IMG/VR virus record: IMGVR_UViG_3300047199_000011
Coordinates: 1-54,614 of that record
Strand: one strand, 5' to 3'
Source of the DNA: a virus
Lineage: Duplodnaviria; Caudoviricetes
Length of the DNA: 54,614 nucleotides
Part shown: positions 1 through 43,209 of the stretch, piece by piece
How positions within the stretch are numbered: the first letter of the stretch is position 1
How the letters are laid out: each line of letters begins with the position of its first letter
Made by a program: the position numbers and the translations under genes
Notes under the pieces: model-generated
What the model was told of the DNA's origin: nothing
Seen by the model: the letters and a program-made list of their open reading frames with translations, nothing else
The model's database searches: none

Positions 1-146
1 CCGCATGGGAGGACATTGAAACCAGGTACCCCCACCCTCCGTTGGCGAAGGAACTGTGCGCCGCTCTAATGAGCGGCTTACAGTTTAGATAAGCCAATTA
101 GCTAAGTGCTTGGGCTTGACAAGCACAGTATACAGGGAGGTGCAAC

Positions 147-374
147 ATGGAAGGTGTAGCAGCAGTAGCAGAGAACAGGGCTCGTGAGAGCGTATATCGT
201 TTCACTATCAACAGGGCTGACTTGCAGTTGTTAGCGAGTGCAGCGCAGCAAGCTGGGCATGATAAGGTTACATTTGAAATCAAGGCTCAGGGCTTTGTTG
301 CAGGTGAGAAAAGCAAGAGAGCTGGAGATACATTCCACAGCTGGGTTGCGAGGCATTGGGCACCTAAGGCCTAA
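147..374 (+). CDS. hypothetical early protein
   Basis: 75-aa ORF with GGGAGG RBS upstream of the ATG. Confidence 0.6.
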   Translation: MEGVAAVAENRARESVYRFTINRADLQLLASAAQQAGHDKVTFEIKAQGFVAGEKSKRAGDTFHSWVARHWAPKA

Positions 375-451
375 GGCGTACAGTCCTGAGCATGACTATA
401 AACTGCTCATATTTAATTACTAAATTGCTTACAACAGAGGAGAATAGGACA

Positions 452-775
452 ATGAAGATGAATAGACCACCCACAACTGAGGATAAGCACAATAGATTTA
501 ATGAGAGGTTTGCCAATGATGAGAATACTGGAGTCAATAAGCTTACTTCAACGGGCTGTATGAATAGGTTTAACATACACCGTAGTGAGATGATGCTGAC
601 TGATAATGAGAATCGCCAACGCAACTTTGAATATGCCAATAATGCAGAGAGAGAAGAACGCAGGATGCAGATGACCTTATGGAAGTGCTTTAACAAGCTT
701 GGGTATAAGCTATTGGATAATGAGTCAGCCGATGAGCTGATAGAAAGGGCTAAGCAAGATGGAAACTTGGATTAA
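452..775 (+). CDS. hypothetical early protein
   Basis: ORF track 392-775; GAGGAG/AGGAC upstream favours the ATG at 452. Confidence 0.55.
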   Translation: MKMNRPPTTEDKHNRFNERFANDENTGVNKLTSTGCMNRFNIHRSEMMLTDNENRQRNFEYANNAEREERRMQMTLWKCFNKLGYKLLDNESADELIERAKQDGNLD

Positions 776-912
776 GGCTATACTATTCTTGTTATGGGTA
801 GTAATGATGACTATATTTGCTATCCATACGATAAATGATCATAATCCATGAGGCGTCGCCGCTTTTATGAGCGGCTCCGCCGCATAGGTATGTACTATAA
901 AAGGAGGATATA

Positions 913-1170
913 ATGAGCTATATGAAGATGCTGGATGAGGTAATTGTGGATAAGGTGCAGTATGACCATGATACAAGAGAGAATGAGCACGCATATCTGC
1001 AATTAAGGGATGAGGTTAACGAATGTAAGCTGGTGAGCGCACATGGACAGCTCGAGATTGAACAGCTCTCACCAATAGCTCAAGAGTGTGTACGTGAATG
1101 GGAGAGCTTAATTGAGGCTAAGGCCCATCATGATTTTATTAACTATGCTGAACAACCGGAGGACTACTAA
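913..1170 (+). CDS. hypothetical acidic protein
   Basis: AAGGAGG RBS; stop overlaps the next start (TAATG). Confidence 0.7.
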   Translation: MSYMKMLDEVIVDKVQYDHDTRENEHAYLQLRDEVNECKLVSAHGQLEIEQLSPIAQECVREWESLIEAKAHHDFINYAEQPEDY

Positions 1171-1355
1171 TGGAAGAACTAAAGACATTCGTTAACTCAC
1201 TAGCCAAAGTGATTGATGTTATTGGTGAGAGGCTTGTAGCTAATCATGAGGCAATTATCACATTAACGAAGGTAATTGAGCAACAAGACAAGGTTATCTT
1301 GGGTATGTGGGATAGGATCCGTGAGCTTGAAAGGAAGGCGAACAATGAAATGTGA
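1170..1355 (+). CDS. hypothetical coiled-coil protein
   Basis: Translationally coupled ORF with a heptad-like pattern. Confidence 0.6.
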   Translation: MEELKTFVNSLAKVIDVIGERLVANHEAIITLTKVIEQQDKVILGMWDRIRELERKANNEM

Positions 1356-1548
1356 ACTCTGTGGCCGTGAAACCACTAAATTGTACCAAGTACCATTAGC
1401 AGATGATATAGAGCAGGATGAAGATGGGTGTATTTACCCACAATATGCAACTTATAACGTGTGTTCAGCCTGTGTGCCAGAGGAGTGTGTTGAGTTTATA
1501 GACGATGGACAGCAGATACTCCATAATTTGCTCACAAGGCTGCCATGA
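1345..1548 (+). CDS. small zinc-finger protein
   Basis: MKCELCG...VCSAC gives two CxxC pairs; AAGGAAGG upstream of the ATG at 1345. Confidence 0.6.
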   Translation: MKCELCGRETTKLYQVPLADDIEQDEDGCIYPQYATYNVCSACVPEECVEFIDDGQQILHNLLTRLP

Positions 1549-1666
1549 AGTTTCCATATAATAACCATATTAACTCGGATCTAAGTTACCAACGATTTGT
1601 TAACTCGTTGCGGCACAGTTAATCAACGGTGATTAGGCAATCTATTCTTATTATATTATACATTAT

Positions 1667-1703
1667 GTTGTAGGCGTTGTAGGCGTTGTAAGTGTTGTAG
1701 GCA
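1667..1703. repeat. tandem 9-bp repeat (GTTGTAGGC-like, about 4 copies) in an AT-rich intergenic region
   Basis: gttgtaggc gttgtaggc gttgtaagt gttgtaggc, flanked by AT-rich tracts. Confidence 0.85.
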
Positions 1704-1744
1704 CAGTAGTATCCTATTTATGATTTTATTATTTAGAATACGGA

Positions 1745-2005
1745 GTGAATATGCTCTTTAAAGAAGGAGATTTAGTTAGAAGCGTATCTGAACACGGGAT
1801 AATCAGGGTAGTAGTTATACCAAACAAGCACCTTAATTGCGAGAGCCATGAGAGCATTGGCGTAGCTGAGTGCGATGTATATGCCGGGAGAGCAGTAAAT
1901 ATAAGACAAGTATTTGTTTGGACGCTGCCTGCTTATTGGGAGTTGTTAACCGAAGATGCAATCATTAACAGAATCATTGAGGAAGAAGTAAAGAGGTGGA
2001 AATGA
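1745..2005 (+). CDS. hypothetical protein (SH3/KOW-like start)
   Basis: 86-aa ORF beginning FKEGDLVR. Confidence 0.55.
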   Translation: MNMLFKEGDLVRSVSEHGIIRVVVIPNKHLNCESHESIGVAECDVYAGRAVNIRQVFVWTLPAYWELLTEDAIINRIIEEEVKRWK

Positions 2006-2116
2006 TGTACCGTAAGCGGAAGAAGAAAGGGTTCTTTGGTGCTGTGTATCCCAAGAATCAAAGACTATATGAAGATGGAGAAAGCGATTTAAGCCGTTTA
2101 TTAGAAAGGAGAAAAC

Positions 2117-2251
2117 ATGACAAAGGCAGAACAGATGTGCCGGTCAAACATAGCTAAAGGCCGGTGGACTCCTGCATTGTGCATTGCGTGTAGAATCAAG
2201 GATACTATGGATTGCAGAACACGCAAGGCTATGATGAAGGAGAAGAAATGA
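2117..2251 (+). CDS. small Cys-rich protein (below ORF-track cutoff)
   Basis: AAGGAG RBS; MTKAEQMCRSNIAKGRWTPALCIACRIKDTMDC...; ATGA overlap with the next ORF. Confidence 0.5.
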   Translation: MTKAEQMCRSNIAKGRWTPALCIACRIKDTMDCRTRKAMMKEKK

Positions 2252-2427
2252 ACATGATTAAATGGGATAAGCCCATGCTCCAACGATTCAAGAAGAAATA
2301 TAACCAAGAGTGCTTCACCTTTGATGGAGATGAGCACGTATTTACATTTGAAGGCAATGAGTTTGTTGTAGGATACGCCAAGTATCTTATTCAACATCTT
2401 GAGGCCGCATTTAAAACAGTAAAATGA
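2248..2427 (+). CDS. hypothetical protein
   Basis: AAGGAG RBS; MNMIKWDK... Confidence 0.6.
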   Translation: MNMIKWDKPMLQRFKKKYNQECFTFDGDEHVFTFEGNEFVVGYAKYLIQHLEAAFKTVK

Positions 2428-2495
2428 GCGGCAATTCGCAATTGATCGCGAATAACGAGCGAGCGTGAACAATGACCGCGAGCGAGTGGTGCCGC
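2428..2495 (+). other. structured fold-back element A (G.A-mismatch stem, GAACAATGA core)
   Basis: Closing stem GCGGCA/TGCCGC; hairpin ATTCGC/GCGAAT; CGAGCGAGCG...CGCGAGCGAG pairs with two tandem GA/GA mismatches. Confidence 0.75.
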
Positions 2496-2503
2496 AAGGA
2501 GGA

Positions 2504-2659
2504 ATGATGGCTAAGGCCATGCGTAGATTAACTTACAGAGGCAAGAAGCAAGAGTATATCAAGAAGGATGCCATGGCCAATATCTTGGCTAAGATGGCTA
2601 GGTGGAATATCACACTCAAGGATTTACACAACGCAATACTCAGGATAGGAGGTGAATGA
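2504..2659 (+). CDS. small basic protein
   Basis: AAGGAGG RBS directly after element A. Confidence 0.6.
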   Translation: MMAKAMRRLTYRGKKQEYIKKDAMANILAKMARWNITLKDLHNAILRIGGE

Positions 2660-2910
2660 TGGCTACGTTATTCAGATTAAAGAAACCAGGCGACAAACGA
2701 GCGCATACGTGTGATGCTCGTTGCTACAATGCAAAGGGTACAGTATGCAAGTGTTTCTGTGGTGGTACTAATCATGGCGAAGGATTGGATTTTGCAATCG
2801 GTAACTGCAAAGCCAATATGCAGAAATTCATGAGCATGGGCTGCCAGATAGGAAAAGGATTAGCAGCAGCAATCAAACAAGCAGTAGCAGAAATAACAGG
2901 AGGTGTATGA
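2656..2910 (+). CDS. Cys/His-rich putative zinc-binding protein
   Basis: HTCDARCYNAKGTVCKCFCGGTNHG; AGGAGGT RBS. Confidence 0.7.
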   Translation: MMATLFRLKKPGDKRAHTCDARCYNAKGTVCKCFCGGTNHGEGLDFAIGNCKANMQKFMSMGCQIGKGLAAAIKQAVAEITGGV

Positions 2911-3149
2911 TGGACACAGGTGATTTAATTGGTGAGATAAAGAAGACCAACGTGGTTGTGACCAAGGTGCGCTTGACTGAGTTCAAAGGCCGCAAGTTCC
3001 TTGATATCAGGGATTTCTTCAAGCCCAAGAACTCTATTGAGTTCGCGCCTACCAAGAAAGGGATTGCTCTTGATGTGAGCAGGGTGACTGAGATTCTTTC
3101 CTTGATTGAGCAAGCAGAAGCAAAGATATTAGTTGACAAGAAGCAATAA
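2907..3149 (+). CDS. PC4/p15 (YdbC-like) ssDNA-binding protein
   Basis: VRLTEFKGRKFLDIRDF...PTKKGIAL matches the PC4-fold signature. Confidence 0.85.
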   Translation: MMDTGDLIGEIKKTNVVVTKVRLTEFKGRKFLDIRDFFKPKNSIEFAPTKKGIALDVSRVTEILSLIEQAEAKILVDKKQ

Positions 3150-3158
3150 CTTGCTACA

Positions 3159-3362
3159 ATGTGTAGCATGAGAACGAGGTGCATGATGCCGACGAAACAA
3201 GAATATGAGTGCTACTCCTGCGGCAAAGAAACAACGCAGGGACAAATGAGGGACTTGCCTTATGATGAATACATCGGGCAGGTCTTTCTTTGTTTAGAGT
3301 GCTGTAAGGCGGAAGACCGCTTAATGGAGGAGAAAGATGATGTGCCCATTTTGCGGGAGTAA
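3159..3362 (+). CDS. small zinc-finger protein
   Basis: ECYSCG...LCLEC; start uncertain. Confidence 0.5.
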   Translation: MCSMRTRCMMPTKQEYECYSCGKETTQGQMRDLPYDEYIGQVFLCLECCKAEDRLMEEKDDVPILRE

Positions 3363-3498
3363 CACCGTGTGTGATAAGTTCGGTGAGGAGTGGATCACAT
3401 GGTGTCCGTATTGCAACAAGGAGGTTATATTCGATGAAGATGACGAAGGGGACACCAGCAACATTCCCGGAGTTGAGGGGAAACCTAGCAGGGCTTAG
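3337..3498 (+). CDS. zinc-ribbon protein with acidic tail (below ORF-track cutoff)
   Basis: GGAGGAG RBS; MMCPFCGS...WCPYC...; overlaps the ligase start. Confidence 0.55.
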   Translation: MMCPFCGSNTVCDKFGEEWITWCPYCNKEVIFDEDDEGDTSNIPGVEGKPSRA

Positions 3499-4294
3499 AT
3501 GGCCTTGCTTCGCTGAGGTCAAGTATGATGGTGAAGCGTGCTTGATAGGCTATCACAATTCTGCACCAATACCAATCTTCACCAGTAATAAGTATGGAAC
3601 CATGCGGCATGAGTGGGGGAAGCTGGATAGTATTCAGTCTATCCTTGAAGACAATGATGTTGAGCAGGCAGTGTTTCTAGCTGAGTTATTCTATGGTGAA
3701 GGAAAGAAGGGTGACTTGTACAAACTGCTGAGTCATAAGGATGATGATACCCTTAATCTGATTATTTATGATGTAGGGCATATCACATTCAAGAACAGCA
3801 AGATGGCAGGCGAAGTAACACCATTGATAACGCGCAAAGAAATACTGAGTGAGCTGTTTCCTTCTGGAGCAGGATTCACTAGTTGGAGTATCAAACCTCA
3901 CATCGTTGAAGGCAGGCTTGAAGCAGAATCATACTTTGGTGATGTTACTGATGATGGGTATGAGGGAATCGTGCTTAAGCCTTTGGATGGATTCCTCACT
4001 CATGGGCCATGTGCTTGGGTAAAGATGAAGTTCAAGGACAGAAGCGAGTATAAAGTAATAGCCGTATCGAATACACAAGAACGAATCGAGATTGCAGTAC
4101 CAGTTCCACCAGCGCCAGGAACGCTTCAGTTGATTGCGAAGTATATCCCATGTGGCGTTAAAGTAACCAACAAACACAAAGCGAGCCTTCGACCGGGTGA
4201 TACTGTTGAGATTGAACATCAAGGAGTTCTTGATTCAGGCTCATTAAGGCATCCGGTGTTTATACGCAAGGTAGAAGGAGAAAGGAATGGCTAA
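3434..4294 (+). CDS. lig: minimal ATP-dependent DNA ligase (adenylation + OB domain)
   Basis: Motif I EVKYDG, IIIa IYDV, IV YEGIVLK, V WVKMK, VI LRHPVF; AAGGAGG RBS before the ATG at 3434. Confidence 0.9.
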   Translation: MKMTKGTPATFPELRGNLAGLRWPCFAEVKYDGEACLIGYHNSAPIPIFTSNKYGTMRHEWGKLDSIQSILEDNDVEQAVFLAELFYGEGKKGDLYKLLSHKDDDTLNLIIYDVGHITFKNSKMAGEVTPLITRKEILSELFPSGAGFTSWSIKPHIVEGRLEAESYFGDVTDDGYEGIVLKPLDGFLTHGPCAWVKMKFKDRSEYKVIAVSNTQERIEIAVPVPPAPGTLQLIAKYIPCGVKVTNKHKASLRPGDTVEIEHQGVLDSGSLRHPVFIRKVEGERNG

Positions 4295-5453
4295 TACCGT
4301 GCCACCTATTGATAGAATACCCGACGAAGAATTAAAGAAGATACGAGATCAGTTAATGGGAACTAGTACCAAGGTACGTGCTTGGCAAATCAAAGATGTG
4401 CTTAAATCCAAGAACATTGAGATGGACGAAAGCACAATCCGCGGGCGGTTCATTGAGATGGGACAGCCGTTGAGCGGTAATGTAGGAGAACCTGTGGCCG
4501 CCACTGTAGCAGAAACGCCAAAGGTTATGACTACTAAGAGGCAATATCCCGTGACTGCTGAGATGGCTCAATATGTCCCGCATGATGAAGACTTCACCAA
4601 TTATATCACAAGGGATATTGATAAGCGATTAGCAGCGCATCTGGATGCAAGCAGGCCTGGACATTGGAAATATCCTTTGTGCCAAGGCAAGCAAGGAACT
4701 GGAAAGACATTCTCAATCCAGTATTATGCGTGGATGAACAAGATTCCGTTCTTTCTGTATTCAATGTATGAGGATTTCAAATTGCCAAAGCTGTTTGGTG
4801 ATAAGACAATCCAGAACGGCAGCATCATGTTCCAAGAAAGTACGTTCGTTAAGGCAATTCAAGGGCCGTGTCTGATTTGCTTTGATGAGATAAACGCTCT
4901 GAGTAATGCAGGCACATTTGATTTCCATGCGTTTATGTGGAATAGAGAGCTGTTTATTAAGGATGCAGACAACGGACAAGGTAAAGTGTTCAAGTTGCAT
5001 GATGATTGCAAGATGGCATTTGCCCAGAATCCAAAGAGTGCAAAGTATATCGGTGGCAATATCAAGGCAAGCAATTTCCTTGGACGATGTACGTATCTAA
5101 CTTATCCAGAGTTCAGCAAGAAGGAAATAAGGTTAGCGTTGTTCAAGAAGTTCCCTACACTAGGCAAGGATGACTTGGATAAGTTCACCAAGTTCTATTT
5201 TGCGTGCCTTGAAACCATTGAGAAGGCAAACATCCCGGTTGATATCTCAATCAGGCAGTTGAATAACTGCATTGACTTGTGGATGCACGGGATGCCGTTG
5301 CAGTATGCAATCGAAGATGGTATCACCAGTATCATGGAAGCAATCAGCCAACCTAAGGCCAAAGAAGCGTTCTTTAGAATAGCGCAGGCTATTTGGAAGG
5401 AGCTTATGAGCCAGAGCGACAAAGAAAAGGTCGAGAAAGAGAAAGATGAATGA
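4287..5453 (+). CDS. MoxR/CbbQ/CobS-type AAA+ ATPase
   Basis: Walker A GKQGTGKT, Walker B ICFDEIN, sensor AQNP, SIRQL helix; lies near a vWA gene. Confidence 0.85.
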   Translation: MANTVPPIDRIPDEELKKIRDQLMGTSTKVRAWQIKDVLKSKNIEMDESTIRGRFIEMGQPLSGNVGEPVAATVAETPKVMTTKRQYPVTAEMAQYVPHDEDFTNYITRDIDKRLAAHLDASRPGHWKYPLCQGKQGTGKTFSIQYYAWMNKIPFFLYSMYEDFKLPKLFGDKTIQNGSIMFQESTFVKAIQGPCLICFDEINALSNAGTFDFHAFMWNRELFIKDADNGQGKVFKLHDDCKMAFAQNPKSAKYIGGNIKASNFLGRCTYLTYPEFSKKEIRLALFKKFPTLGKDDLDKFTKFYFACLETIEKANIPVDISIRQLNNCIDLWMHGMPLQYAIEDGITSIMEAISQPKAKEAFFRIAQAIWKELMSQSDKEKVEKEKDE

Positions 5454-5673
5454 AGAACGTAAGGATCAACTGGCTCACCTTTATTATGGGTGCCCTTATC
5501 GTGTTTGTTGTAAGCGGCGTAAGAAGATTGTTGATGCGCAAATCAGATTAGAGGAAAGGAGTAAGCAACACCGAAGCGAAACGGAGCCGGTAGCGGAGTG
5601 TGCACGCGGTTCTATTGCGAACGAGCGCGAACAGGCAACCCAGCGCGGAGCGGCAACCCGCGGTGAGCAATAG
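5446..5673 (+). CDS. hypothetical protein; 3' half runs into element B
   Basis: Overlaps the ATPase stop; C-terminal part may only be read-through of structured DNA. Confidence 0.35.
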   Translation: MNEERKDQLAHLYYGCPYRVCCKRRKKIVDAQIRLEERSKQHRSETEPVAECARGSIANEREQATQRGAATRGEQ

Positions 5674-5719
5674 AGTGCGTGCTGCGTAGCGTACGGCGTA
5701 GTGGAGCGTAAAGTGTTGC
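5565..5719 (+). other. structured fold-back element B (five GNA/GNA internal loops)
   Basis: GCAACAC/GTGTTGC, GCACGC/GCGTGC and TCTATTGC/GCAATAGA stems; periodic GAA/GTA, GAA/GGA, GGA/GTA, GTA/GTA, GGA/GTA loops between short WC blocks. Confidence 0.8.
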
Positions 5720-5727
5720 AAGACGAT

Positions 5728-5970
5728 ATGAAAATGAGAGCGTTTAGAGGAAGAATGGTGCCAATCAAAGGAGGCACAAACATCCAGCTATGTGCAAGAG
5801 AGATACATCAGCTTAGAGATTTGCTATCAGACAAGATGGCTGAACTCGAGCCTAAGGCAAAGAACAATAAGCTGTACTCTCTTGATTTAACCTATTTCCG
5901 TAGGATATACTCGAAGTTAACTAAACAATGGCGCTGTGTCCATTGTGGAGAGTGGGTGAATCATGGATGA
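5728..5970 (+). CDS. hypothetical protein
   Basis: ORF after element B; C-terminal CxxC. Confidence 0.5.
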   Translation: MKMRAFRGRMVPIKGGTNIQLCAREIHQLRDLLSDKMAELEPKAKNNKLYSLDLTYFRRIYSKLTKQWRCVHCGEWVNHG

Positions 5971-6160
5971 ATTACTTGAAGCATTAGAGGATATGGTGAA
6001 TCAGCATTGTACTGTAAACGGCAAAGAGTGCCCAGCTTATCTTGATTCAATGGCTCTTTCTGCAAATGCTTATGCTATGCGTGTATTAGCCAAACATAAG
6101 CGTATTGTTATCAAGAAAGAATACGGAAGAAGAATCATTGCAGATTGGAGTAACTCATGA
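5963..6160 (+). CDS. hypothetical protein
   Basis: Overlap-coupled ORF, ATGA junction with the vWA gene. Confidence 0.6.
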   Translation: MDELLEALEDMVNQHCTVNGKECPAYLDSMALSANAYAMRVLAKHKRIVIKKEYGRRIIADWSNS

Positions 6161-7560
6161 ATAGAGTAACCTTTGAAATGCTCGCCAAGTGGTGCGCCGG
6201 TAAGCATAAGGCGAAGGTTGTCTTTGATGCACAGGCAACGGGAGCAAGTTCCAGTCCTCAGAAGAATGAGATTTATATGCCCTGTGATCTTAAGGAGCAT
6301 AACATTCTTGGAGCGTTGGCGTTGCTGATGCACGAAGCCGGCCACTTGAAGCACAGTGGGAAGATACCAAAGGATGTAGCTGATGGCCGTGTAATCAGCC
6401 ACAATATCCTTAATGCGTTTGAGGATATCAGAATAGACAACAAGAACTTTCAGATCCTGGATAATATCCGTGGCTTCTACCAGAAGCTAGTTGACCAGCA
6501 CGTATATCCACGCAAAGAGGAGATGATGAAAGAGCATCTGATGACCAGGTGCTTAATCAACGGCATCCTGCGGAATGAAAGGTTCAACGAAGTCTATGAA
6601 GATGACGAAGCTATCAAGTTCAATCGAAAGCACAATATCCCTAAACTTATGTATCAAGCACAGTGGGATATCGAACAAGGTAACTGGCAGGCCGTTAAGG
6701 ATGCGATTAAGAAGGTAAAGACACTGTTTAAGATAAAGGAGGAGGATGATGTCCAGCAAACAGAACCTTCTGATGTGGGCAACACTGACAAGTTTCTTCG
6801 ACCCGGAGCTGCGTGGGATAAAGGACAAGGCATCAAGGGCCCGAGCAAAGATATTATTGGAGAAGCTGCGTTCCAGGATATTACCAAAGATTCCTTCAAA
6901 GAGCTCCTCACAATTAAGGAAAAGCGGACAGTATTTGAAGGAGCTAAGCTCAATACAGATGCCATCACGTCCTTCTTCACAGGAGATATTGACGATCTGT
7001 TCCACGAACAAGACATCCAAAAGACAAAGAAAAGCAAAATAGCGTTCTGTCTGGATGCTTCAGGCTCAATGCAATCCAGGATGATTGATGGAAGCGACAG
7101 GCAACAGCTATTAGTCAAGACAACCCGCAGCATAATCAATATCCTCAAGGAAATACAGGAGCAGGAAGGATTGAACATCAGCTATGATGTGTGGGCGTTC
7201 GATTATAATGCAGAGAAATTAAACCCAGAAGATTGGGAGCGACAGTATAGCGCGAGAAGAGGTGGCACAAATCTATATCAAGCGTTCCAAGATGTACAGA
7301 ATGACATCCTAGCTAATCAGGAGATCGATGGGAATAAGCTGGTTATCCTGATGACTGATGGTGAGGTAGGATGTGATGAGATCGAGAACCTAAGGAAGCA
7401 AATAATCACTCATGGCGCTGAAGTTAGGTGCATGGTGGTCGGGATAGGCGCTACATTAGGAGGCGCTTTCGTTGAAACAATCGCCGGTGAGAGTAATATA
7501 CTTGGCGAGGAGCACGCTGATAGTGTCATTATGGACACGATAAAGGCGATGCTGGAATGA
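6157..7560 (+). CDS. CobT-like protein: N-terminal zincin-like domain + C-terminal vWA
   Basis: HEAGH...NAFEDIRID; MIDAS DASGS...GGT...TDG. Confidence 0.9.
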   Translation: MNRVTFEMLAKWCAGKHKAKVVFDAQATGASSSPQKNEIYMPCDLKEHNILGALALLMHEAGHLKHSGKIPKDVADGRVISHNILNAFEDIRIDNKNFQILDNIRGFYQKLVDQHVYPRKEEMMKEHLMTRCLINGILRNERFNEVYEDDEAIKFNRKHNIPKLMYQAQWDIEQGNWQAVKDAIKKVKTLFKIKEEDDVQQTEPSDVGNTDKFLRPGAAWDKGQGIKGPSKDIIGEAAFQDITKDSFKELLTIKEKRTVFEGAKLNTDAITSFFTGDIDDLFHEQDIQKTKKSKIAFCLDASGSMQSRMIDGSDRQQLLVKTTRSIINILKEIQEQEGLNISYDVWAFDYNAEKLNPEDWERQYSARRGGTNLYQAFQDVQNDILANQEIDGNKLVILMTDGEVGCDEIENLRKQIITHGAEVRCMVVGIGATLGGAFVETIAGESNILGEEHADSVIMDTIKAMLE

Positions 7561-7682
7561 CGAGCGAGAAGCCGGATGGCGTGAGTGCTGGCGGCGAAAT
7601 AAGAGGTATCGAACAATGACAAAGCGAAGCGGGATAAATAGGACAAGGCCAGCACGGTCGCCAGAAGACTCGAGCGAAGTCA
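7558..7682 (+). other. structured fold-back element C
   Basis: TGAC/GTCA, TGGCG/CGCCA and GTGCTGGC/GCCAGCAC stems with GA/GA and GGA/GAA loops; inner CGAACAATGAC and GCGAAGC. Confidence 0.75.
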
Positions 7683-7695
7683 AAGAAAGGTGAAT

Positions 7696-8256
7696 ATGAA
7701 GAACGAAGTACCAGAAGCTACAAGTATGGTATCACAATACTGCCTTGATGTGCTTCCTGCAACGAAGTTTATTGAATCGTTGCCAAGGGGGATTGAAGTC
7801 AAGGCCATGAAGTTCTGCGGATATTACCGTGGATTAAGGAAGAAGTTAGCTATACCTGAATATCTCAAGCAAATGGGAGTTCATACAGCAAGAACAACTC
7901 CCGAACATTCTGAGATAAACGGGCACTTCAATAGCGGGCTTTCATCCACAAAGATGATTACTAATCTAAAGAGGATAGCTAAATCTTACGCTATCCCAGA
8001 GGCAAGGTTCCATATCTTGACCATCACTCTTGGATGTAAGAACGCAGCAGCTTCATTCAGAAGGCAGTACAAGCAGATCAGGCTTCCGAATGACAAGAGA
8101 AGGAAGAAACTCGTGCTTGGTATGTCAGGCATGGGAGTAGGGAATCATATCGCTTTGCTTGCTAAGTTATCGGCAAAGAAGATTACCTGCACACTCGCTA
8201 AAGTGGAAAAGACAATCGTGATGTGCTCAGAGGAAATGGTAATGAAAGGAAGGTAA
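7696..8256 (+). CDS. hypothetical basic protein
   Basis: GAAAGGTG RBS after element C. Confidence 0.6.
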   Translation: MKNEVPEATSMVSQYCLDVLPATKFIESLPRGIEVKAMKFCGYYRGLRKKLAIPEYLKQMGVHTARTTPEHSEINGHFNSGLSSTKMITNLKRIAKSYAIPEARFHILTITLGCKNAAASFRRQYKQIRLPNDKRRKKLVLGMSGMGVGNHIALLAKLSAKKITCTLAKVEKTIVMCSEEMVMKGR

Positions 8257-8257
8257 C

Positions 8258-8404
8258 ATGGCCAAGAAGCAACAGTGGACTGGCGTAAGGATAGGGCCTG
8301 GCATGTACAAGGAGTTGAAAGTCTTGTCCAAGATACAGGATGTCCCTATGTCCAGCATATTGAGGAAGCTGTGGAATAAGTACAAGAAGGAGGTGTTAAA
8401 ATGA
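8258..8404 (+). CDS. ribbon-helix-helix (Arc/CopG-like) DNA-binding protein (below ORF-track cutoff)
   Basis: MAKKQQWTGVRIGPGMYKELKVLSKIQDVPMSSILRKLW fits a strand-helix-helix pattern; ATGA-coupled to the next gene. Confidence 0.65.
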   Translation: MAKKQQWTGVRIGPGMYKELKVLSKIQDVPMSSILRKLWNKYKKEVLK

Positions 8405-9060
8405 GCTATAAGCTAGCAATCCAAGACAACAATCTCGGAGTGAACGCTAATGTTCGCTTTGAGAATCTCTCCAAGCTGGAGCGGCCTGAAGTAGTAGCCA
8501 AGACTCCTACTGGGAAGGTAGCCAAAGAGAAAAGCGTTGTCAACGGTAAGGTTATCCAGCAAGGTGAGATGACGCGCCAGTGGGTAGATGAAGACGGCAC
8601 TGTCTATGGCAAGACTGAACTCACGTTCTGGTATAACAATGAGCAGGTATCCGAGAATCAGCAGACCAAGACATTGGCAATCACCGGATATCAGCCGTTG
8701 GCGAACTATACCGACAACTATGTGATAGCTGCGTACTATGAGATATTCCCGGATGATAACGGGATGAAGAAAGACTTTGATAGGGACAGGGCAAAGGCGA
8801 GTAATCTATTCCAAATGAGGAAGCTCTGGGAGCATCTTGATAGTACCAAGCAGGTAGCCCGCGGTGAGTTCTGTACCAGTTCCCGTGGGTTCATAGCCAG
8901 CGATGGTTATATCAGAGCGGTATCGTTCCAGAATAAGTGGGGATTAGAGATTGGTGTGTTCAAAGAGGAGAAAGTCTTTGAGCATCTCAATGAAGGCCTG
9001 CCTCAAGAAGTCAAAGCGGCTGCACCAGAAGCCGGAAGGAAGAAATTGAAAATGGTATAA
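8401..9060 (+). CDS. divergent Ku-like DNA end-binding protein
   Basis: By-eye colinearity with the prokaryotic Ku core: GVNANVRF, QTKTLAITGYQPL...YYEIFPD, MRKLWEHLDSTKQVARGEF; basic C-terminal tail. Confidence 0.6.
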   Translation: MSYKLAIQDNNLGVNANVRFENLSKLERPEVVAKTPTGKVAKEKSVVNGKVIQQGEMTRQWVDEDGTVYGKTELTFWYNNEQVSENQQTKTLAITGYQPLANYTDNYVIAAYYEIFPDDNGMKKDFDRDRAKASNLFQMRKLWEHLDSTKQVARGEFCTSSRGFIASDGYIRAVSFQNKWGLEIGVFKEEKVFEHLNEGLPQEVKAAAPEAGRKKLKMV

Positions 9061-9179
9061 GCAGTACAGAGGGCTAGGGTCATCCGAAAGCGAACCAGCT
9101 TTGCTGGTGAGTACGAAGCGAGCGAACAATGATTGCGAGCGTTGGTGAACTTTCGGATGTCCCGGGCCCGTTGTACTGC
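9061..9179 (+). other. structured fold-back element D
   Basis: GCAGTACA/TGTACTGC and CATCCGAAAG/CTTTCGGATG stems; hairpin ACCAGC-TTT-GCTGGT; core GCGAGCGAACAATGATTGCGAGCG. Confidence 0.8.
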
Positions 9180-9194
9180 AAGAAAGGAGATAAT

Positions 9195-9455
9195 ATGGGA
9201 ATGGAAGTGTTAGCAGAATATCCGAGTAGCTCTAATCCAAGCAAGACGTACCATATCATACATGGAAAAGATGGTGTGACTTACTGCGATTGTATGGCAT
9301 GGAAGATGTCTAATCCGCACAGATGTAAGCATCTTGATATTTACTACAAAGATAGAACCGGTGGTAAAATCTATCCCAAGAATAAGACTTTCCCTGCAAC
9401 CTGGAGTGAACTAAGCGCAGCCATAGCAGAAGCAGTGAACACTATCAAGGGATAA
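9195..9455 (+). CDS. SWIM zinc-finger protein
   Basis: SSSNPSKTYHI...YCDCMAW...RCKHL = CxC-x(n)-CxH; AAGGAG RBS. Confidence 0.85.
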   Translation: MGMEVLAEYPSSSNPSKTYHIIHGKDGVTYCDCMAWKMSNPHRCKHLDIYYKDRTGGKIYPKNKTFPATWSELSAAIAEAVNTIKG

Positions 9456-9525
9456 AGGGTTGGTGCCCTTAAACGGCGCCGGTTAACCAGCCGTCCCGTT
9501 TTACCGACTTGAACGGTCAACCCCC
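9455..9525. terminator. hairpin cluster where the two arms converge
   Basis: AAGGG/CCCTT, ACGGC/GCCGT and ACCG/CGGT stems between convergent stop codons. Confidence 0.4.
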
Positions 9526-9529
9526 AAAC

Positions 9530-9664
9530 CTATCGCCACCTATCCGCTAACCCACCTATCACAGTAACAAAGAACAAGAATATCAACGCCAACGATCCAA
9601 GCCCAGCACATATCCCTCCGAAGAAACCGTATCCCCAATAGAAACCATCAAGAACTTCTTTCAT
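9530..9664 (-). CDS. small membrane protein (below cutoff)
   Basis: AGGAGG RBS; MKEVLDGFYWGYGFFGGICAGLGSLALIFLFFVTVIG. Confidence 0.55.
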   Translation of the reverse strand: MKEVLDGFYWGYGFFGGICAGLGSLALIFLFFVTVIGGLADRWR

Positions 9665-9730
9665 CGACCCTCCTAAAGATACAGAGAGAGCAACGGTACG
9701 CCGTTGTTCTTTCTGTTGACACCGGGCATA

Positions 9731-9898
9731 CTAACGGCTTGACCTCTTTGCATTTCTTACAATAGCATAGAAGCTTATTCCGTACAGCTTTAAAACCTTG
9801 TTTACGCATGACAGAACCTCTTTAATCTGGCCTATGTTTACTTGCACTATCTTTCCCTCTAACTCCGCTACCTGCTTTGCCAACGTGTTTAAATCCAT
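9731..9898 (-). CDS. hypothetical protein (below cutoff)
   Basis: AAGGAGG RBS; MDLNTLAKQVAELEGKIVQVNIGQIKEVL... Confidence 0.55.
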   Translation of the reverse strand: MDLNTLAKQVAELEGKIVQVNIGQIKEVLSCVNKVLKLYGISFYAIVRNAKRSSR

Positions 9899-10223
9899 TT
9901 CATTCCTCCTTCATGTTAACGTGCCATCTGTTGTTAATCCTCGATTCACCAAGCTGGTTCAACAGTTTGTACCAATCACCTATCTTCATGGTAACATACT
10001 GTAAGTCATCACCTGTCCGGTACACAGTTATTTCCAGGTGAACTTTCTTGGATTCTTCTTTCTTCTTCGGCGTCTTCCAACCGAAACAACTTCCAATTCT
10101 CTTTGTCCAAGTGCTTAACAGTGAGCGCATAGCCTAGGCTCTTTCCATCCCCCTCCGGGGATATAGCATCTCCGTGAACATAGCACCAGATATACTTACC
10201 GTACGCAGGCCTGCAATCTATCC

Positions 10224-10724
10224 TCATATCATCAGAGTAAGCGAGTTTACCATCATCAACGGTAACGTAGCACCGGTCGCAGCTCCACGGCCCATCTCCT
10301 CGACATCCACATTGCCTGATAGCGCTGAGATCCCACCCATCACCAACGCTAGGACGACGCAGTGGATTGCGTATCCCAGCCACATCCCAGTCATGATAGC
10401 GAACCAAAGTTTAACAACGCCAATCATGAATCCATGAAACCAGAAGTTATCGTACCCGAACACTTCATCCCAATACATCGACGTCATTCCCCATAACGCA
10501 CCGAACGTAACGACATAAATATACCAGGCAACGTGCGGGTAGAAGATTGCCATCCAGCCGGTCGTTACCAACGAACAGCCCGCGTCCCGCGTCTTCGAGT
10601 TGAACATCCACATCGGAACCCACGGGTACTTCACAGCTCCTTCCACACATGAGCAACCGCCGAATCTATATAGGTACGCGTTGACGATTGCTGCCAATGC
10701 AGCTCCTGCTAACATCCAAATCAT
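10224..10724 (-). CDS. multi-pass membrane protein
   Basis: Several hydrophobic segments; AGGAGG RBS. Confidence 0.7.
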   Translation of the reverse strand: MIWMLAGAALAAIVNAYLYRFGGCSCVEGAVKYPWVPMWMFNSKTRDAGCSLVTTGWMAIFYPHVAWYIYVVTFGALWGMTSMYWDEVFGYDNFWFHGFMIGVVKLWFAIMTGMWLGYAIHCVVLALVMGGISALSGNVDVEEMGRGAATGATLPLMMVNSLTLMI

Positions 10725-18182: not shown

Positions 18183-18211
18183 ATATTATCAAAAGAGCGA
18201 AAGTTTGTCAA
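18183..18211 (-). promoter_or_regulatory. sigma70-type promoter for the recombination/replication operon
   Basis: TTGACA-17 bp-TAATAT with extended -10 TG. Confidence 0.8.
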
Positions 18212-21200
18212 GGGTTTTTCTTAATGTTCTTAATTTGCAAGCGTTTTGTAGTTCGAGGAGAGAACATTTCTACAGCTCGTCGATTACGACGTTCTAATGT
18301 CCGGAAGGGATAATTTATCCCCTCCATGATAGTGCGTAATTGACCGGGATTCAATTCAAGTTCTTCCGCCACATCCGTGGGATCTTCGTAGTTATCACGT
18401 ATTCGTTCGCGGGCTCGCTTAAGAATATAATCGCGCATTTGGCCAGCCTGTTTGACTTCTCCGAACTCAGAAATTGGAGCGCCTTCTTCTGCTCGCGGCC
18501 CACGGCGCAATGTAATACCTCCTAATTGTGCCCTAGTTAACCACTTATCAGTAGTAAGTTGCGGCTGTTTTTCCACACCAAGCGGAACGGTTAAATTCTG
18601 TACGCCCTTACTTAAATCAATAGCCCAGCCTCCGATAATTTCACCTTGGCTATTTCTCATCAACGGAGGAACTGCCCCGTTCTCACGAAAGTAACTTAGC
18701 GCCCGGATTATTTCGCCAACGCCAATGTTTACTTTATTCTGGATGGTTTCTATCGGACGTTCTGAAAGCCCGTATAAGAGCTGAACCTCTCTAAAGTATT
18801 GCGGCTCAATAAAGTATGTAGCGTTATTAACATCCCTGTTACCTAACCACATGGATAACTTATACCCCTTCGGGTTCTTAAACATATCCTTATCATCGGG
18901 AGAACCACCGCGCAAAGACTGTACTGCGTATTGGATCGTCCAGTTAATCAGAATCTTAGCTGCAAATACCTTAATTAAATGCCATGCGTATTTCTTCCAC
19001 AACGTATCTAATTCGCCGGAACTCTTTTCTCCGTGCATAAGAGGGTTAATAAACTGCGTTGCTTTACCGGTTTTGAAAGCATATGCCTTCTGTATACCCT
19101 TCTCAACTGGAGTTCCTTTTACCCCAGGTAACTTAGTTATACCATACGCCGCTCCAGTCAAAATACGTATAGGAGCTGATACAAGATTTCGAGAGAAGAA
19201 CAAGAGCGACCATAACGGGCCAGTCCTGCCGTAAATCGCTGGATTAGGCATAAGCGAAGCATCGTTGATAAAGTCAACGGCGATTTTGGCAGCTTGCCTC
19301 TTATTCATTCCAGGATTCTTGCTCATAATAGAATCCATTTCCGCCTTAGTAACATCATATACGGATTGAGCAATAAGGTTATTGAATATCGCTGCGTTTA
19401 CTCCTCCGAAAGTCAAGAAGAACTCTTTGATATTCTCTGCTCTATCTTTACTAAAAGCAAACTTGCCCAAGTTCTTTGCATCAAAAGCGGCCCTAAGGGA
19501 CATCTCAAAACGTTGTCCTCCAACCAAGCCAAGTTCAATAAACAACGGAAGCTCATCATTTTCAGGTGACATGGGGGCATCGGCATACTCCCCTTTAAGC
19601 ATCTGTGCTCCCGTGCTGAATAGCTTAGGGCCTGTCTTAATAAGATTCTTCGCAAACGATTTATACACCTTACCATTCAAGCTCAACAACACCGGAGCAA
19701 GGTAGATGAGGTTTGTATCAAACGGGTTGATCGTCTTCCACCTGCGGATGAGGGTTAATACTTCGTTGGTATTACGCAGCATTTCCGTAGTATTAGAAGA
19801 AGCTCCCCTACCGTACATGGTTTCCAATATAGAATACAATGACTGGTGAATATACGGATTTTGAAAAGCTCCGCGATACCAGAGAACGAGTCCGGGAGCA
19901 TCTTTGGCCGCAATATAACCATACTTGGTGAACCATTTGTTCTCGGTTATACCTTCAGCAGCGGCCTTCTTAGACACTTCATGCTCATAAAGAACCAATG
20001 GATACCCGGCAGCAATTTCGATATTCTTGAGATACTTTAATGTTTCTAACTGATCGATAGTGAGCAGGCTATCAGTAACATACTGCTGCATTTGTGCGAC
20101 ATAATCATCTATAGGAACAAGCCCTTGGCCGCCAGCTTGCTGGCTTTCCGCAGGTGCAAGAGGCCCACGCTGTATCATCCACGGGCCAGTAGCCATAAGG
20201 TATTCTTCATATGTCCTATATTTGGCCGACTCTATCGCAGCACTTGATAGCGGCCCACCCATCCTTCTGGAAGCGGACATAGAACCTACTTCCTGCGTAT
20301 CGGCATATCTCCACACCCTGTTGATAAAGCCCTCCAAAATGTTATTAGCCATGTCGGCCTTATCAAGGATACCAAGCTCCATCATCCTATTAAGATGTGG
20401 AGTTTCAACCTCTGCCTTAACCCAGCGCAATAGTTCTTGTAACGTACCATCTTTACAAACGTTAGGATGAGCAAGCATCTTATAGAAGAAGTCCTCCGGA
20501 CGCTCCTGTGCTAGGTAGTCCTCGAGAGGAACACTAGTAGGTACGGAATAAATCTGACGCATCCATACTTCATCAACGCCAAGCCTCTGCATGAAGTATT
20601 TGGCCCTATTTACAAAGGCCACCGCTTCAGCGTTGGTATCATTACGGAATTGCCCTGGTTCGTGTATATGCTTCTCACCTATTTTAGTCCTTGCCCTATT
20701 GACCGAATCACCTTCTTTGCAATAAAACTCTACTCCGGCAGAAGACATAAGTTGTCGGATAAGCTCACTCTTATATTGCTTGTCGCTTTTCTTAAGCTGA
20801 GGATTATCACGCATGATGATATCGATGATAACCTTGTCCACCGGAAACATCTGGTCGTAGGATACCTTTGCCGCTTCATCAACTGACAATTTGCCTTCAT
20901 AAAGACGAGCAACAACATCTTGAGATACAGGTTTAGCTTTTGGTATGCGCCCGAAAAGCTGCTGTGTCTTCTTTGGTGAAACAAGCTTACCAATATGACG
21001 CATTATGGAATCTTTGGTTTTAGTAGCACGCATAAGCTCGAGAAGAACGCGAGCTTTAATCTTACGTTTGTATATCCATGGTTCATTAGGTTTCATGGCC
21101 TTACGCTGACCACGGTTGCTAGTAGCTTTCTGGGAGTTATATGCAGGCCTGGCCGACCAATCTATACCGAACATCACGGGGTTATAATAGGTAAACTCTA

Positions 21201-43016: not shown

Positions 43017-43209
43017 TCTTCGCTATCCCAATTAAGTCATCCAGCCGCTTGACCACTTCAACCAAGTTACGGTTGACTTGAGCAAGAAGCTGAATGGTGA
43101 GGATAGGCGTATTGCCTTGGATAATCTCTACCTTGTCAGCGGGTTTCGGTGCTTCCTGAGGAGGTACTGTCCCCCCTTGAGTCTGGTATACTTGTTTACC
43201 CTTAGCCAT
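43009..43209 (-). CDS. hypothetical protein
   Basis: GGAGG RBS. Confidence 0.55.
   Translation of the reverse strand: MAKGKQVYQTQGGTVPPQEAPKPADKVEIIQGNTPILTIQLLAQVNRNLVEVVKRLDDLIGIAKNG

What the first reader, a model, noticed from the sequence alone, without database searches (positions are those of the whole stretch)
2428..9179. Family of four dispersed G.A-mismatch fold-back elements with a shared GAACAATGA core punctuating the early operon
Seen: at 2428-2495, 5565-5719, 7558-7682 and 9061-9179 the + strand folds into long irregular stems. Their Watson-Crick arms differ in sequence, but the design is conserved. There is a closing stem; for A, C and D it begins at the upstream stop codon and ends right before the next RBS, and all four are followed by AAG. 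Internal mismatches are mostly GA/GA or GNA/GNA. The core is CGAGCG..GAACAATGA..GCGAGCG (complete in A and D, GAACAATGA in C, GAACA in B). Known: sheared tandem G.A pairs and GCGAAGC mini-hairpins are very stable in ssDNA, and CGAGCG-rich fold-backs occur in plasmid single-strand initiation/primosome sites. Inference: the complement would carry TC/TC mismatches, so the structure is selected on one strand only. Candidate roles are ssDNA signals (priming, ssDNA promoter, loading site for the PC4, Ku or SWIM proteins) or a new cis-acting mRNA motif/processing site. This is my best candidate for an undescribed system.
Basis: partly seen in the sequence, partly recalled or inferred. Interest (0 to 1): 0.88.

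Follow-up and report, generated by a model that had tools for sequence, protein, structure and literature searches.

The report
G·A-studded hairpins between phage early genes
An uncultivated freshwater-sediment phage and its relatives carry long sense-strand hairpins full of G·A mismatches between blocks of early genes, several capped by the same nine-letter loop; they are most likely RNA punctuation marks of a kind not yet catalogued, and their function is untested.

Summary
At 2428-2495, 5565-5719, 7558-7682 and 9061-9179 the + (sense) strand folds into irregular hairpins. Their internal loops are almost all GA/GA or GNA/GNA, and GAACAATGA occurs in A, C and D.

Folding energy beats shuffles clearly for D, modestly for C, and not for A or B. 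The G·A loop design does beat dinucleotide shuffles in all four, and it marks these four sites against the rest of the 54.6 kb genome.

Relatives from metagenomes carry such hairpins in the same gaps, with different arms, compensatory changes and the same nonamer. Some relatives have nothing in the slot. The closest relative has a tRNA-Asn gene there.

No Rfam family, repeat family, recombinase, reverse transcriptase or virion RNA polymerase was found.

Best reading (0.45): structured RNA punctuation of the early polycistronic mRNA, acting as a processing or 3'-protection signal. It works like T7 RNase III sites or tRNA punctuation, with the nonamer as a recognition site. The rivals are an operator or decoy RNA, ssDNA signals, recombination linkers and passive insulators. 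All of them remain open because no RNA data exist.

Verdict: a real, uncatalogued motif family of unknown function. Interest 0.58.

The parts
2428..2495 (+). Element A. It has a 6-bp closing stem, hairpin 1, and hairpin 2 with two tandem GA/GA loops capped by the nonamer. It runs from the TGA stop at 2425-2427 to AAGGAGG and the ATG at 2507.
   Evidence: recovered as a non-seed hit of model R1 at 2418-2499, 35.9 bits, E 1e-8
2467..2475 (+). Nonamer GAACAATGA in the apical loop of A
5565..5719 (+). Element B, a 155-nt hairpin. Its lower helix consists of 2-4 bp steps separated by four GNA/GNA 3x3 loops. The apical three-way junction has a loop that begins GAACA (5629-5633). An SD-like AAAGGAG (5555-5561) lies 3 nt 5' of the element, and the ATG at 5728 lies 8 nt 3' of it with no SD of its own.
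7558..7682 (+). Element C. The closing stem TGAC/GTCA includes the vWA gene's stop codon. The lower helix has GA/GAA, GA/GA and GGA/GAA loops. The nonamer sits in a purine-rich unpaired centre.
7611..7619 (+). Nonamer GAACAATGA in C. Its ATG opens a 25-codon basic ORF (7616-7693); coding is not established.
9061..9179 (+). Element D. It gives the most stable 120-nt fold in the genome. The outer stem has about 30 pairs with A/G, A/G and T/T mismatches, around a three-way junction.
   Evidence: (I1)
9084..9156 (+). Conserved inner domain of D. Hairpin 1 (9091-9111) is closed by C-G plus a tandem GA/GA. Hairpin 2 (9112-9147) has a GA/GA loop and the nonamer loop.
9124..9132 (+). Nonamer GAACAATGA in the apical loop of D

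Best explanation
The elements are cis-acting structured RNA 'punctuation' in the phage's early polycistronic mRNA.

Each folds on the sense strand into a long hairpin or three-way junction. It loops out of the message between the stop codon of one block of translationally coupled genes and the Shine-Dalgarno sequence of the next.

The inferred function is a processing and/or 3'-end protection signal. A host double-strand or structure-specific RNase (RNase III type) or another factor would recognise the helix and the GAACAAUGA loop. The upstream message would be left with a protective 3' hairpin and the downstream ribosome-binding site would be left free.

The tandem G·A and GNA/GNA loops keep the helix stable in the sense RNA. 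The same positions on the complement are pyrimidine mismatches, so the DNA palindrome is imperfect. They would also break up perfect duplex, as internal loops do in known RNase III substrates.

Shown: anatomy, strand bias, conservation, covariation and position. Inferred: that the active molecule is RNA, that it is cleaved or bound, and by what.
For: Position:
- The hairpin base lies 0-3 nt after the stop and 0-12 nt before AAGGAG-type sites in A, C, D and in relatives.
- The elements separate blocks of overlapping or coupled genes.

Strand:
- The + (sense) strand is more stable than its complement in 21 of 22 elements.
- Windows with 2 or more GA-type loops: 12 of 2179 on + against 1 of 2179 on - in the window, and 11 of 1519 against 1 of 1519 in four relatives.
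- None occurs among the - strand genes of the rest of the genome.

Conservation:
- All 22 elements in syntenic gaps have negative z. It is <= -3.0 in 19 of 22, with unrelated arm sequences.
- In the inner helices, 96.6% of cells are paired and 4 of 9 pairs show double changes in 7 sequences.
- In 10 sequences it is 95.1% and 6 of 9, against 6-46% in slid controls.
- Model R1 built from D-type cores finds element A at E 1e-8.

Slot:
- In L028, the closest relative, the D slot holds a sense-strand tRNA-Asn gene 4 nt after the stop and 3 nt before AAGGAGG. That is another structured, processable RNA.

Terminators:
- The elements have no U tract, whereas a canonical hairpin plus U-tract terminator follows the giant gene. 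They are therefore not ordinary terminators.

Known chemistry (passages of PMC1540722):
- Internal loops in RNase III substrates restrict cleavage and leave protective 3' hairpins.
- Coaxially stacked short helices can serve as substrates.
Against: - There is no RNA evidence at all. No RNA run holds the phage, so transcripts, ends and cleavage are unobserved.
- RNA and + strand ssDNA have the same sequence and cannot be told apart here.
- By energy, A and B fold no better than shuffles.
- A conserved loop is not a known requirement of E. coli RNase III.
- In C-type elements the nonamer is not in a helix-capped loop.
- Five of 22 elements in relatives show no GA-type loop.
- Some relatives lack any element in the slot, so it is dispensable.
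- The host, and hence its RNases, is unknown.
Confidence: 0.45

Rival explanations
1. Operator or decoy RNA. The GAACAAUGA loop is the binding site of a specific trans factor: a phage translational repressor of the T4 RegA kind, an Hfq-like protein, or the anticodon loop of tRNA-Asn. The G·A-zippered helices are the scaffold. The hairpins may be released as stable small RNAs that titrate that factor.
For: - The nonamer is invariant across non-homologous junctions: 15 intergenic elements in the window and its relatives, all sense strand (contexts read).
- It also occurs at three real-looking gene starts behind an SD (window 1345, 32795 on the - strand, L023 8917), so it looks like a start-site mimic.
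- AACAAUGA matches the Hfq SELEX motif AAYAAYAA at 7 of 8 positions (motif seen only in the search listing of PMC2887942).
- AACAA is complementary to the anticodon loop TTGTTAA of the tRNA-Asn that replaces D in L028.
Against: - No candidate RNA-binding protein was identified. The small early proteins have no family.
- B and several relatives' elements lack the nonamer.
- The Hfq and tRNA matches are post hoc and short.
- The ORFs opened by the nonamer's ATG are not conserved in length or frame (read by eye).
Confidence: 0.15
2. Single-stranded DNA signals on the + strand (priming or ssi site, ssDNA promoter, loading or recombination site).
For: - Sheared tandem G·A and GNA motifs are very stable in ssDNA (recalled knowledge).
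- The operon encodes a PC4-like ssDNA-binding domain, a Ku-like protein by fold and a ligase.
- D is also significant with DNA parameters, z -5.8.
Against: - No promoter-like hexamer pair lies inside any element.
- No Y1/HUH transposase, tyrosine recombinase or reverse transcriptase is present.
- The giant protein gives no RNA polymerase signal and resembles polyvalent proteins.
- Nothing indicates that this dsDNA phage exposes the + strand of its left end.
- With DNA parameters A, B and C are not better than shuffles.
- The exact stop-to-SD fit and the tRNA in the same slot point to the transcript.
Confidence: 0.1
3. Module-junction linkers or selfish palindromes. The elements are tolerated insertions at gene-block boundaries. 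Their shared core gives short homology for recombination and gene shuffling, as PeSLs do in T4-type phages. Alternatively they are MITE-like.
For: - The slot shows presence/absence. There is no element after the Ku-like gene in L003/L035 and many distant relatives, there are different hairpins in others, and there is a tRNA in L028.
- Genes next to the elements differ between relatives. D-type cores are followed by a SWIM-like gene in 5 of 8 cases and by other genes in 3. In L024 the upstream neighbour differs too (by eye).
- PeSLs are described as points of genetic exchange (abstract of PMC4122927).
Against: - The copies in one genome share no arm sequence. No direct-repeat family covers them.
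- No terminal repeat plus target duplication is evident.
- No transposase is present.
- No multi-copy family appears in 596 Gb of cellular genomes: 66 single hits, about what a rough chance estimate gives, and none with both the G·A design and the nonamer in a loop.
- Compensatory changes and a strand-specific G·A design imply selection on the fold itself.
Confidence: 0.12
4. Passive insulators. These would be purine-rich, C-poor, folded spacers that only shield untranslated intercistronic RNA from Rho or nucleases, or act as U-less pause or termination hairpins, with no specific recognition.
For: - The composition is G+A rich and C and T poor: A 63%, B 63%, C 71%, D 59% purine.
- There is no U tract.
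- The elements are dispensable in relatives.
Against: - It does not explain an invariant nonamer, or the exact GA/GA and GNA/GNA geometry. Of the loops, 19 of 27 2x2 and 15 of 19 3x3 have that geometry (hand tally).
- In most relatives the same gaps are only a few nucleotides long.
Confidence: 0.1

Closest known systems
RNase III processing signals between the early genes of phage T7 (R0.3 to R1.3; the R1.1 model substrate)
   Same: Both are irregular hairpins with internal loops in the intercistronic gaps of an early, host-transcribed polycistronic mRNA. Internal loops limit cleavage and leave protective 3' hairpins (passages of PMC1540722; the T7 gene layout is recalled).
   Different: The elements here are 68-155 nt. 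They have serial tandem G·A and GNA/GNA loops and a shared nonamer loop, and some form three-way junctions. Cleavage is untested and the host is unknown. There is no sequence relation.
tRNA punctuation of polycistronic transcripts (mitochondria; tRNA genes inside bacterial and phage operons)
   Same: A folded RNA fills the gap between two cistrons. In relative L028 a tRNA-Asn occupies exactly the slot of element D.
   Different: The elements are not tRNA-like: ARAGORN finds no tRNA in the window and there is no Rfam match. Processing by RNase P or Z is not implied.
REP/BIME, ERIC and Correia-type intergenic palindromes (MITE-like)
   Same: Both are transcribed imperfect palindromes inside operons. 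Some are known to stabilise upstream mRNA or to be cut by RNase III (recalled).
   Different: Those families are many near-identical copies with conserved arms. Here the arms are unrelated, and only the design and the core are shared.
PeSL promoter/stem-loop cassettes of T4-type phages
   Same: Both are short conserved motifs at the borders of variable early genes, and both are associated with gene shuffling (abstract of PMC4122927).
   Different: PeSLs combine a terminator stem-loop with an early promoter. No promoter-like site lies in or just after the elements, and the elements are much longer.
Integron attC sites
   Same: Each follows an ORF, the sequence is variable but the fold is conserved, and the structure is strand-specific.
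   Different: No RYYYAAC/GTTRRRY core sites are visible by eye. The genome has no tyrosine recombinase. The stable strand here is the sense strand.
Hairpin-bridged split ribosome-binding sites (T4 genes 25 and 38; recalled)
   Same: In B only, an SD-like AAAGGAG lies 3 nt before the hairpin and the ATG lies 8 nt after it.
   Different: The hairpin is 155 nt rather than a short stem. The arrangement is seen once and is untested.

Membership tests
Any Rfam 15 family (including hammerhead, twister, T-box, Y RNA, 6S, RNase-related motifs) | Covariance-model score at or above the gathering threshold | tested here: not met
   There were 0 hits in the window and 0 in 17 loci of relatives. At E<=10 in 2300-9400 there were only 4 weak hits. 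Three do not overlap any element. The fourth (GlmY_tke1, 2381-2525, 15 bits against a gathering score of 33, E 9.5) overlaps A and lies far below threshold.
T7-type RNase III processing signal | Intercistronic position on the sense strand of an early polycistronic unit | tested here: met
   The elements run from stop codon to SD on the + strand. That they are transcribed is inferred.
T7-type RNase III processing signal | About two turns of irregular duplex, possibly by coaxial stacking | tested here: met
   B, C and D have 25-45 paired positions. A reaches this only by stacking hairpin 2 on a 6-bp stem.
T7-type RNase III processing signal | Site-specific cleavage by RNase III | not testable with these tools
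   No RNA run holds the phage. The phage encodes no RNase III of its own.
REP/MITE-like repeats | Many copies with similar arm sequence in one genome | tested here: not met
   No direct-repeat family covers the elements. The arms of A-D are unrelated. The core pattern gives only single hits in 66 cellular contigs.
REP/MITE-like repeats | Partner transposase (RAYT/Y1) | tested here: not met
   PF01797 is absent from the window. A host-encoded enzyme cannot be excluded.
Integron attC | IntI-type tyrosine recombinase and R''/R' core sites | tested here: not met
   PF00589 is absent. The core sites are not seen at the element ends by eye.
ssDNA promoter (Frpo type) | -35 and -10 hexamers formed within the folded strand | tested here: not met
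   None of the 14 promoter-like sites in 1-10500 lies inside an element.
N4-type hairpin promoters | Virion RNA polymerase gene and 5-7 bp stems with 3-nt loops | tested here: not met
   The giant ORF has no polymerase hit, and its atlas neighbours carry LPD38/39 domains. The elements are 68-155 nt.
Kink-turn | 3-nt bulge followed by tandem G·A/A·G | tested here: not met
   The G·A pairs lie in symmetric 2x2 and 3x3 loops, not next to a one-sided bulge.
PeSL | Composite early promoter plus stem-loop | tested here: not met
   There is no promoter-like site in the elements or in the 8-15 nt that follow them.
Retron msd-type ssDNA | Adjacent reverse transcriptase | tested here: not met
   PF00078 is absent from the window.

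The most novel reading that the evidence does not exclude
The nonamer-capped, G·A-zippered hairpins are a new class of trans-recognised nucleic-acid module. They would be cut out of the early transcript as stable small RNAs (or act as + strand ssDNA). Their start-site-like loop GAACAAUGA, which also reads as two Asn codons, would engage a specific partner: a translational repressor, an Hfq-like protein, or the anticodon loop of tRNA-Asn. This would reprogramme host or phage gene expression early in infection.
Probability: 0.15. Interest if true: 0.8.

Novelty: new variant of a known kind. Interest (0 to 1): 0.58.

Why it matters
If these are RNA punctuation or processing signals, they show a new way to build such signals. 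Long helices are held together by serial sheared G·A and GNA/GNA loops, so they are stable on one strand only, and they carry a shared nine-letter loop.

That gives RNA structural biology a natural test bed for tandem G·A motifs. It gives phage biology a handle on how early operons of uncultivated phages are subdivided.

The nonamer and the tRNA-Asn found in the same slot offer a concrete, testable lead to a trans factor.

The family is small, being one clade of freshwater-sediment phages. The general importance is therefore moderate unless the partner proves to be new.

Tried and rejected
**Tools lost or closed**
- The script machine was lost. The loop tallies were therefore made by hand, and no further scripts were run.

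**RNA and read evidence**
- No RNA holder was listed for 2300-9400.
- Laying the contigs of four DNA runs showed no variation inside the elements.

**Collection scans**
- GAACAATGANNGCGAGCG in viral contigs gave 16 stretches. All looked like coding or chance contexts.
- The looser core pattern gave 5 viral stretches, with only L073 faintly similar. It gave 66 single stretches in cellular genomes, in line with a rough chance estimate of about 50. One of them had two GA-type loops, and none combined the design with the nonamer in a loop.
- Phage GenBank records hold nothing similar at the DNA level, and no relative of the Ku-like protein.
- Cellular genomes hold no relative of the Ku-like protein, so there is no host clue.

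**Readings rejected**
- N4-type hairpin promoters: no polymerase signal in the giant ORF.
- Y RNA with a Ro60 partner: the vWA protein gives no TROVE or Ro hit and carries an HEAGH motif instead, and there is no Rfam hit.
- Hammerhead or another known ribozyme: no Rfam hit, and the three-way junction has almost no unpaired core.
- Translated uORF from the nonamer ATG: stops and frames are not conserved among 12 elements read by eye. The C-type ORFs of 25-29 basic codons remain undecided.
- T4 gene 60-type bypass: the landing frame stops after 5 codons.
- A complement of the nonamer on the sense strand, which would allow loop-loop pairing within the transcript: none in the early region.
- A MAFFT alignment of whole elements did not align the outer arms. 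Covariation was therefore counted only for the inner domain.

**Literature**
- Searches found no description of such elements.


Full report
**What the window is**

The window is a whole IMG/VR virus record of 54,614 bp, rated 100% complete. Genes on the + strand fill 1-9,455. Everything else is on the - strand, and the GC skew flips at about 9.5 kb.

The + strand block encodes:
- a PC4-like domain (2907-3149);
- an ATP-dependent ligase (3371-4294);
- a MoxR-type AAA_5 ATPase (4287-5453);
- a vWA protein (6157-7560);
- a 219-aa protein (8401-9060) that has no sequence family but folds like Ku. The model has pLDDT 68.1, and the top Foldseek hits listed are all Ku chains or Ku-containing complexes, best E 1.6e-7.

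The - strand carries replication genes (a DnaB-like helicase, a DnaD-like initiator, Sak4, an exonuclease), a 3038-aa protein, and tail, portal and terminase genes. No phage RNA polymerase was found.

Sigma-70-like sites scoring 11 of 12 lie at 3133-3160 (+) and 54573-54546 (-). The phage probably uses the host polymerase. No cultured relative or host was found.

**Check of the observation**

Their internal loops are listed under the observation check and are nearly all GA/GA or GNA/GNA.

The nonamer GAACAATGA occurs 5 times in the window against 0.56 expected: in A, C and D, and at two predicted start codons.

Nearest-neighbour energy supports only part of the claim. RNA z-scores are -8.1 (D), -2.6 (C), -1.3 (A) and +0.45 or -1.7 (B, depending on the ends). 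With DNA parameters only D stands out.

The energy model gives little credit to 3x3 GNA loops, however, and the design itself is far from chance:
- Dinucleotide shuffles reach the observed number of GA-type loops in 2/300 (A), 0/300 (B), 1/300 (C) and 0/300 (D).
- Across the genome, 10 of the 12 + strand windows with two or more such loops lie on the four elements. Only 1 of 2179 - strand windows has two.
- D is the most stable 120-nt fold of the whole genome.

**Relatives**

Protein-guided scans with the Ku-like protein gave 5 viral and 44 metagenomic loci. The gap after the Ku-like gene holds one of three things:
- a D-type element with the nonamer or a one-base variant, in 9 distinct sequences (window, L029, L030, L031=L032, L034, L037, L039, L040, L036=L041);
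- another long hairpin, in 7 (L033, L038, L046 group, L061 group, L069, L025, L026);
- nothing, with the stop followed directly by the next ribosome-binding site. This includes L003/L035, whose Ku-like protein is 78% identical.

C-type elements follow the vWA gene in L023, L036 and L042. A B-type element follows the MoxR gene in L023.

All 22 elements examined have negative z. It is <= -3.0 in 19, and the three weakest are the window's A, B and C. The + strand is the more stable in 21 of 22.

Hand tally of the loops printed:
- 19 of 27 2x2 loops are GA/GA.
- 15 of 19 3x3 loops are GNA/GNA.
- 30 of 40 single mismatches are purine-purine.
- Five of the 22 elements show no GA-type loop.

For comparison, about 4-5% of 2-3 x 2-3 loops are of GA type in folds along the whole window.

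GAACAATGA occurs in 20 distinct contexts in 291,564 bases of window plus loci, 19 of them on the + strand:
- 15 are in intergenic elements;
- 3 are at start codons behind an SD;
- 2 were not examined.

**Anatomy**

In A and D types an outer stem encloses a three-way junction. The outer stem varies in sequence and has 6 to about 30 pairs.
- Hairpin 1 is closed by C-G followed by a tandem 5'-GA/5'-GA.
- Hairpin 2 has two or three pairs next to the loop, then GA/GA, two pairs, and often GA/GA again.
- Hairpin 2 is capped by the loop AACAATGA(N).

The pairs next to the loop covary. Read by eye, they are GCG/CGC, GTG/CAC, GCC/GGC, CCA/TGG, GC/GC and GT/AC.

On a MAFFT alignment of seven inner domains, 96.6% of cells pair and 4 of 9 pairs show changes on both sides, against 15-42% paired when partners are slid.

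A covariance model built from these finds non-seed members on the + strand:
- element A at 2418-2499, 35.9 bits, E 1e-8;
- an element in L024/L036, 40.9 bits.

It finds no further convincing copy in the full records of five relatives. Besides the L024 element there were only two weak hits, at 17 and 10.3 bits.

On the model-fitted alignment of ten sequences, 95.1% of cells pair and 6 of 9 pairs have double changes. That alignment leans towards the model's structure.

In C types the nonamer lies in a purine-rich unpaired centre, behind SD-like purines. It opens ORFs of 25-29 basic codons. Whether these are translated is open.

B differs in its flanks. The likely upstream gene is a 33-residue hydrophobic peptide (5450-5551) whose ATG overlaps the MoxR stop. 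An SD-like AAAGGAG (5555-5561) sits 3 nt before the hairpin, and the next ATG (5728) sits 8 nt after it with no SD of its own. An alternative 75-codon frame (5446-5673) runs into the element.

**Which molecule, and what it does**

The sequence cannot separate sense RNA from + strand ssDNA, and no RNA run holds this phage. The context favours RNA:
- The elements fit exactly between a stop codon and the next Shine-Dalgarno sequence.
- They separate blocks of overlapping genes.
- They occur only in the sense orientation and only in the early operon.
- In L028, the closest relative (Ku-like protein 85% identical), the D slot holds a tRNA-Asn(GTT) gene 4 nt after the stop and 3 nt before AAGGAGG. 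This was the only tRNA in 51 loci scanned.

A tRNA is a folded RNA that is cut out of transcripts, so the slot seems to accept structured, processable RNA.

The elements lack a U tract, whereas a canonical hairpin plus U-run terminator follows the giant gene at about 18113-18083 on the - strand. They are therefore not ordinary terminators.

I read them as punctuation of the early mRNA: processing and/or 3'-protection signals that work like the RNase III sites of T7. In those sites, internal loops restrict cleavage and leave protective 3' hairpins, and stacked short helices can serve as substrate (passages of PMC1540722). The G·A loops make the helix one-sided. The complement carries pyrimidine mismatches and is less stable by about 0.4 to 16 kcal/mol in 21 of 22 elements.

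Confidence is 0.45. The steps from 'is RNA' onwards are inference.

**Rivals**

- *Operator or decoy RNA recognised through the nonamer (0.15).* The invariant loop at non-homologous junctions and its occurrence at real gene starts speak for a trans factor. The resemblance to the Hfq motif AAYAAYAA rests on a search listing only. The complementarity of AACAA to the anticodon loop of the L028 tRNA-Asn is a post hoc lead.
- *ssDNA signals (0.10).* No promoter-like hexamers lie inside the elements. The genome has no recombinase, Y1 transposase or reverse transcriptase. The giant protein looks like a polyvalent protein and not like an N4-type polymerase.
- *Module-junction linkers or selfish palindromes (0.12).* Presence/absence and changing neighbours fit this reading, and PeSLs are a precedent (abstract of PMC4122927). 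However, copies share no arms, no multi-copy family exists in cellular genomes, and the fold itself is under selection.
- *Passive Rho or nuclease shields (0.10).* This does not explain the nonamer or the exact loop geometry.

**Comparison with the known, and novelty**

No Rfam family matches in the window or in 17 loci of relatives. Four literature searches found no description.

The elements work most like T7 RNase III signals or tRNA punctuation, but they are members of neither. They fail the defining tests of REP/MITE families, attC sites, ssDNA promoters, N4 promoters, kink-turns and PeSLs (see Membership tests).

I rate them a new variant of a known kind: intercistronic structured elements of phage early operons. 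Two features are unusual, the serial sheared-G·A / GNA 'zipper' and the shared nonamer.

The family is confined, as far as exact-core scans and one protein-guided scan can see, to one clade of freshwater-sediment phages.

**Limits**

- There is no expression data.
- The host is unknown.
- Outer-stem covariation was judged from independent folds rather than from one alignment.
- Neighbour-gene identities at junctions were read by eye.
- Loop tallies were made by hand after the script machine was lost.

Noticed in passing
L028 1247-1320 (+): A tRNA-Asn(GTT) gene sits in the slot that element D fills in the window, 4 nt after the Ku-like gene's stop and 3 nt before AAGGAGG. Its anticodon loop TTGTTAA is complementary to AACAA of the nonamer.
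   Followed up: partly
window 8401-9060 (+): The 219-aa protein has no Pfam, PHROG or PDB sequence hit, but its model (pLDDT 68) matches Ku chains, E 1.6e-7. With the ligase at 3371-4294 this suggests a phage end-joining module.
   Followed up: partly
window 60-77 and 858-875 (+): Two copies of the hairpin GCCGCT..ATGAGCGGC (2 matches against 0.01 expected) lie inside larger structured non-coding regions: 1-146 (z -5.2) and 776-912 (z -2.9).
   Followed up: partly
window 3133-3160 (+) and 54573-54546 (-): These are near-consensus extended -10 sigma-70-like promoters (11 of 12 matches, TG present), one inside the early block and one at the right end.
   Followed up: no
window 18208-27324 (-): This 3038-aa ORF has no Pfam, PHROG or PDB match. 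Its atlas neighbours are clusters carrying LPD38/LPD39 polyvalent-protein domains, and one 4787-aa homologue was found at 26% identity.
   Followed up: partly
window 5450-5551 (+): A 33-residue hydrophobic peptide ORF (MKNVRINWLTFIMGALIVFVVSG...) has its ATG overlapping the MoxR stop. It is shorter than the ORF list's cut-off. It competes with a 75-codon frame starting at 5446.
   Followed up: partly
window 6157-7560 (+): The vWA protein carries an HEAGH (HExxH) motif near residue 60, read from the DNA at about 6330-6345. This suggests a metallopeptidase-like N-terminal part. No Pfam hit was found for residues 1-298.
   Followed up: no
window 43085-43230: A long imperfect inverted repeat lies between two - strand genes. 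It lacks the G·A design and folds better on the + (antisense) strand: -66.8 kcal/mol (z -6.4) against -53.8.
   Followed up: partly
window about 18113-18083 (-): A canonical hairpin plus U-run terminator lies about 95 nt after the giant gene.
   Followed up: no
window 9194-9306: One DNA run (X2) holds a contig that skips 111 nt here, removing the start of the SWIM-like gene just after element D.
   Followed up: no
window 1667-1702 (+): Overlapping tandem copies of an 18-nt unit (a 9-nt period, GTTGTAGGC) lie in the 202-nt non-coding gap 1549-1750.
   Followed up: no
window 9195-9455 (+): The gene after D shows a CxC...CxH pattern (YCDCMAWKMSNPHRCKH) typical of SWIM zinc fingers. It has no Pfam hit at E<=1.
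   Followed up: partly
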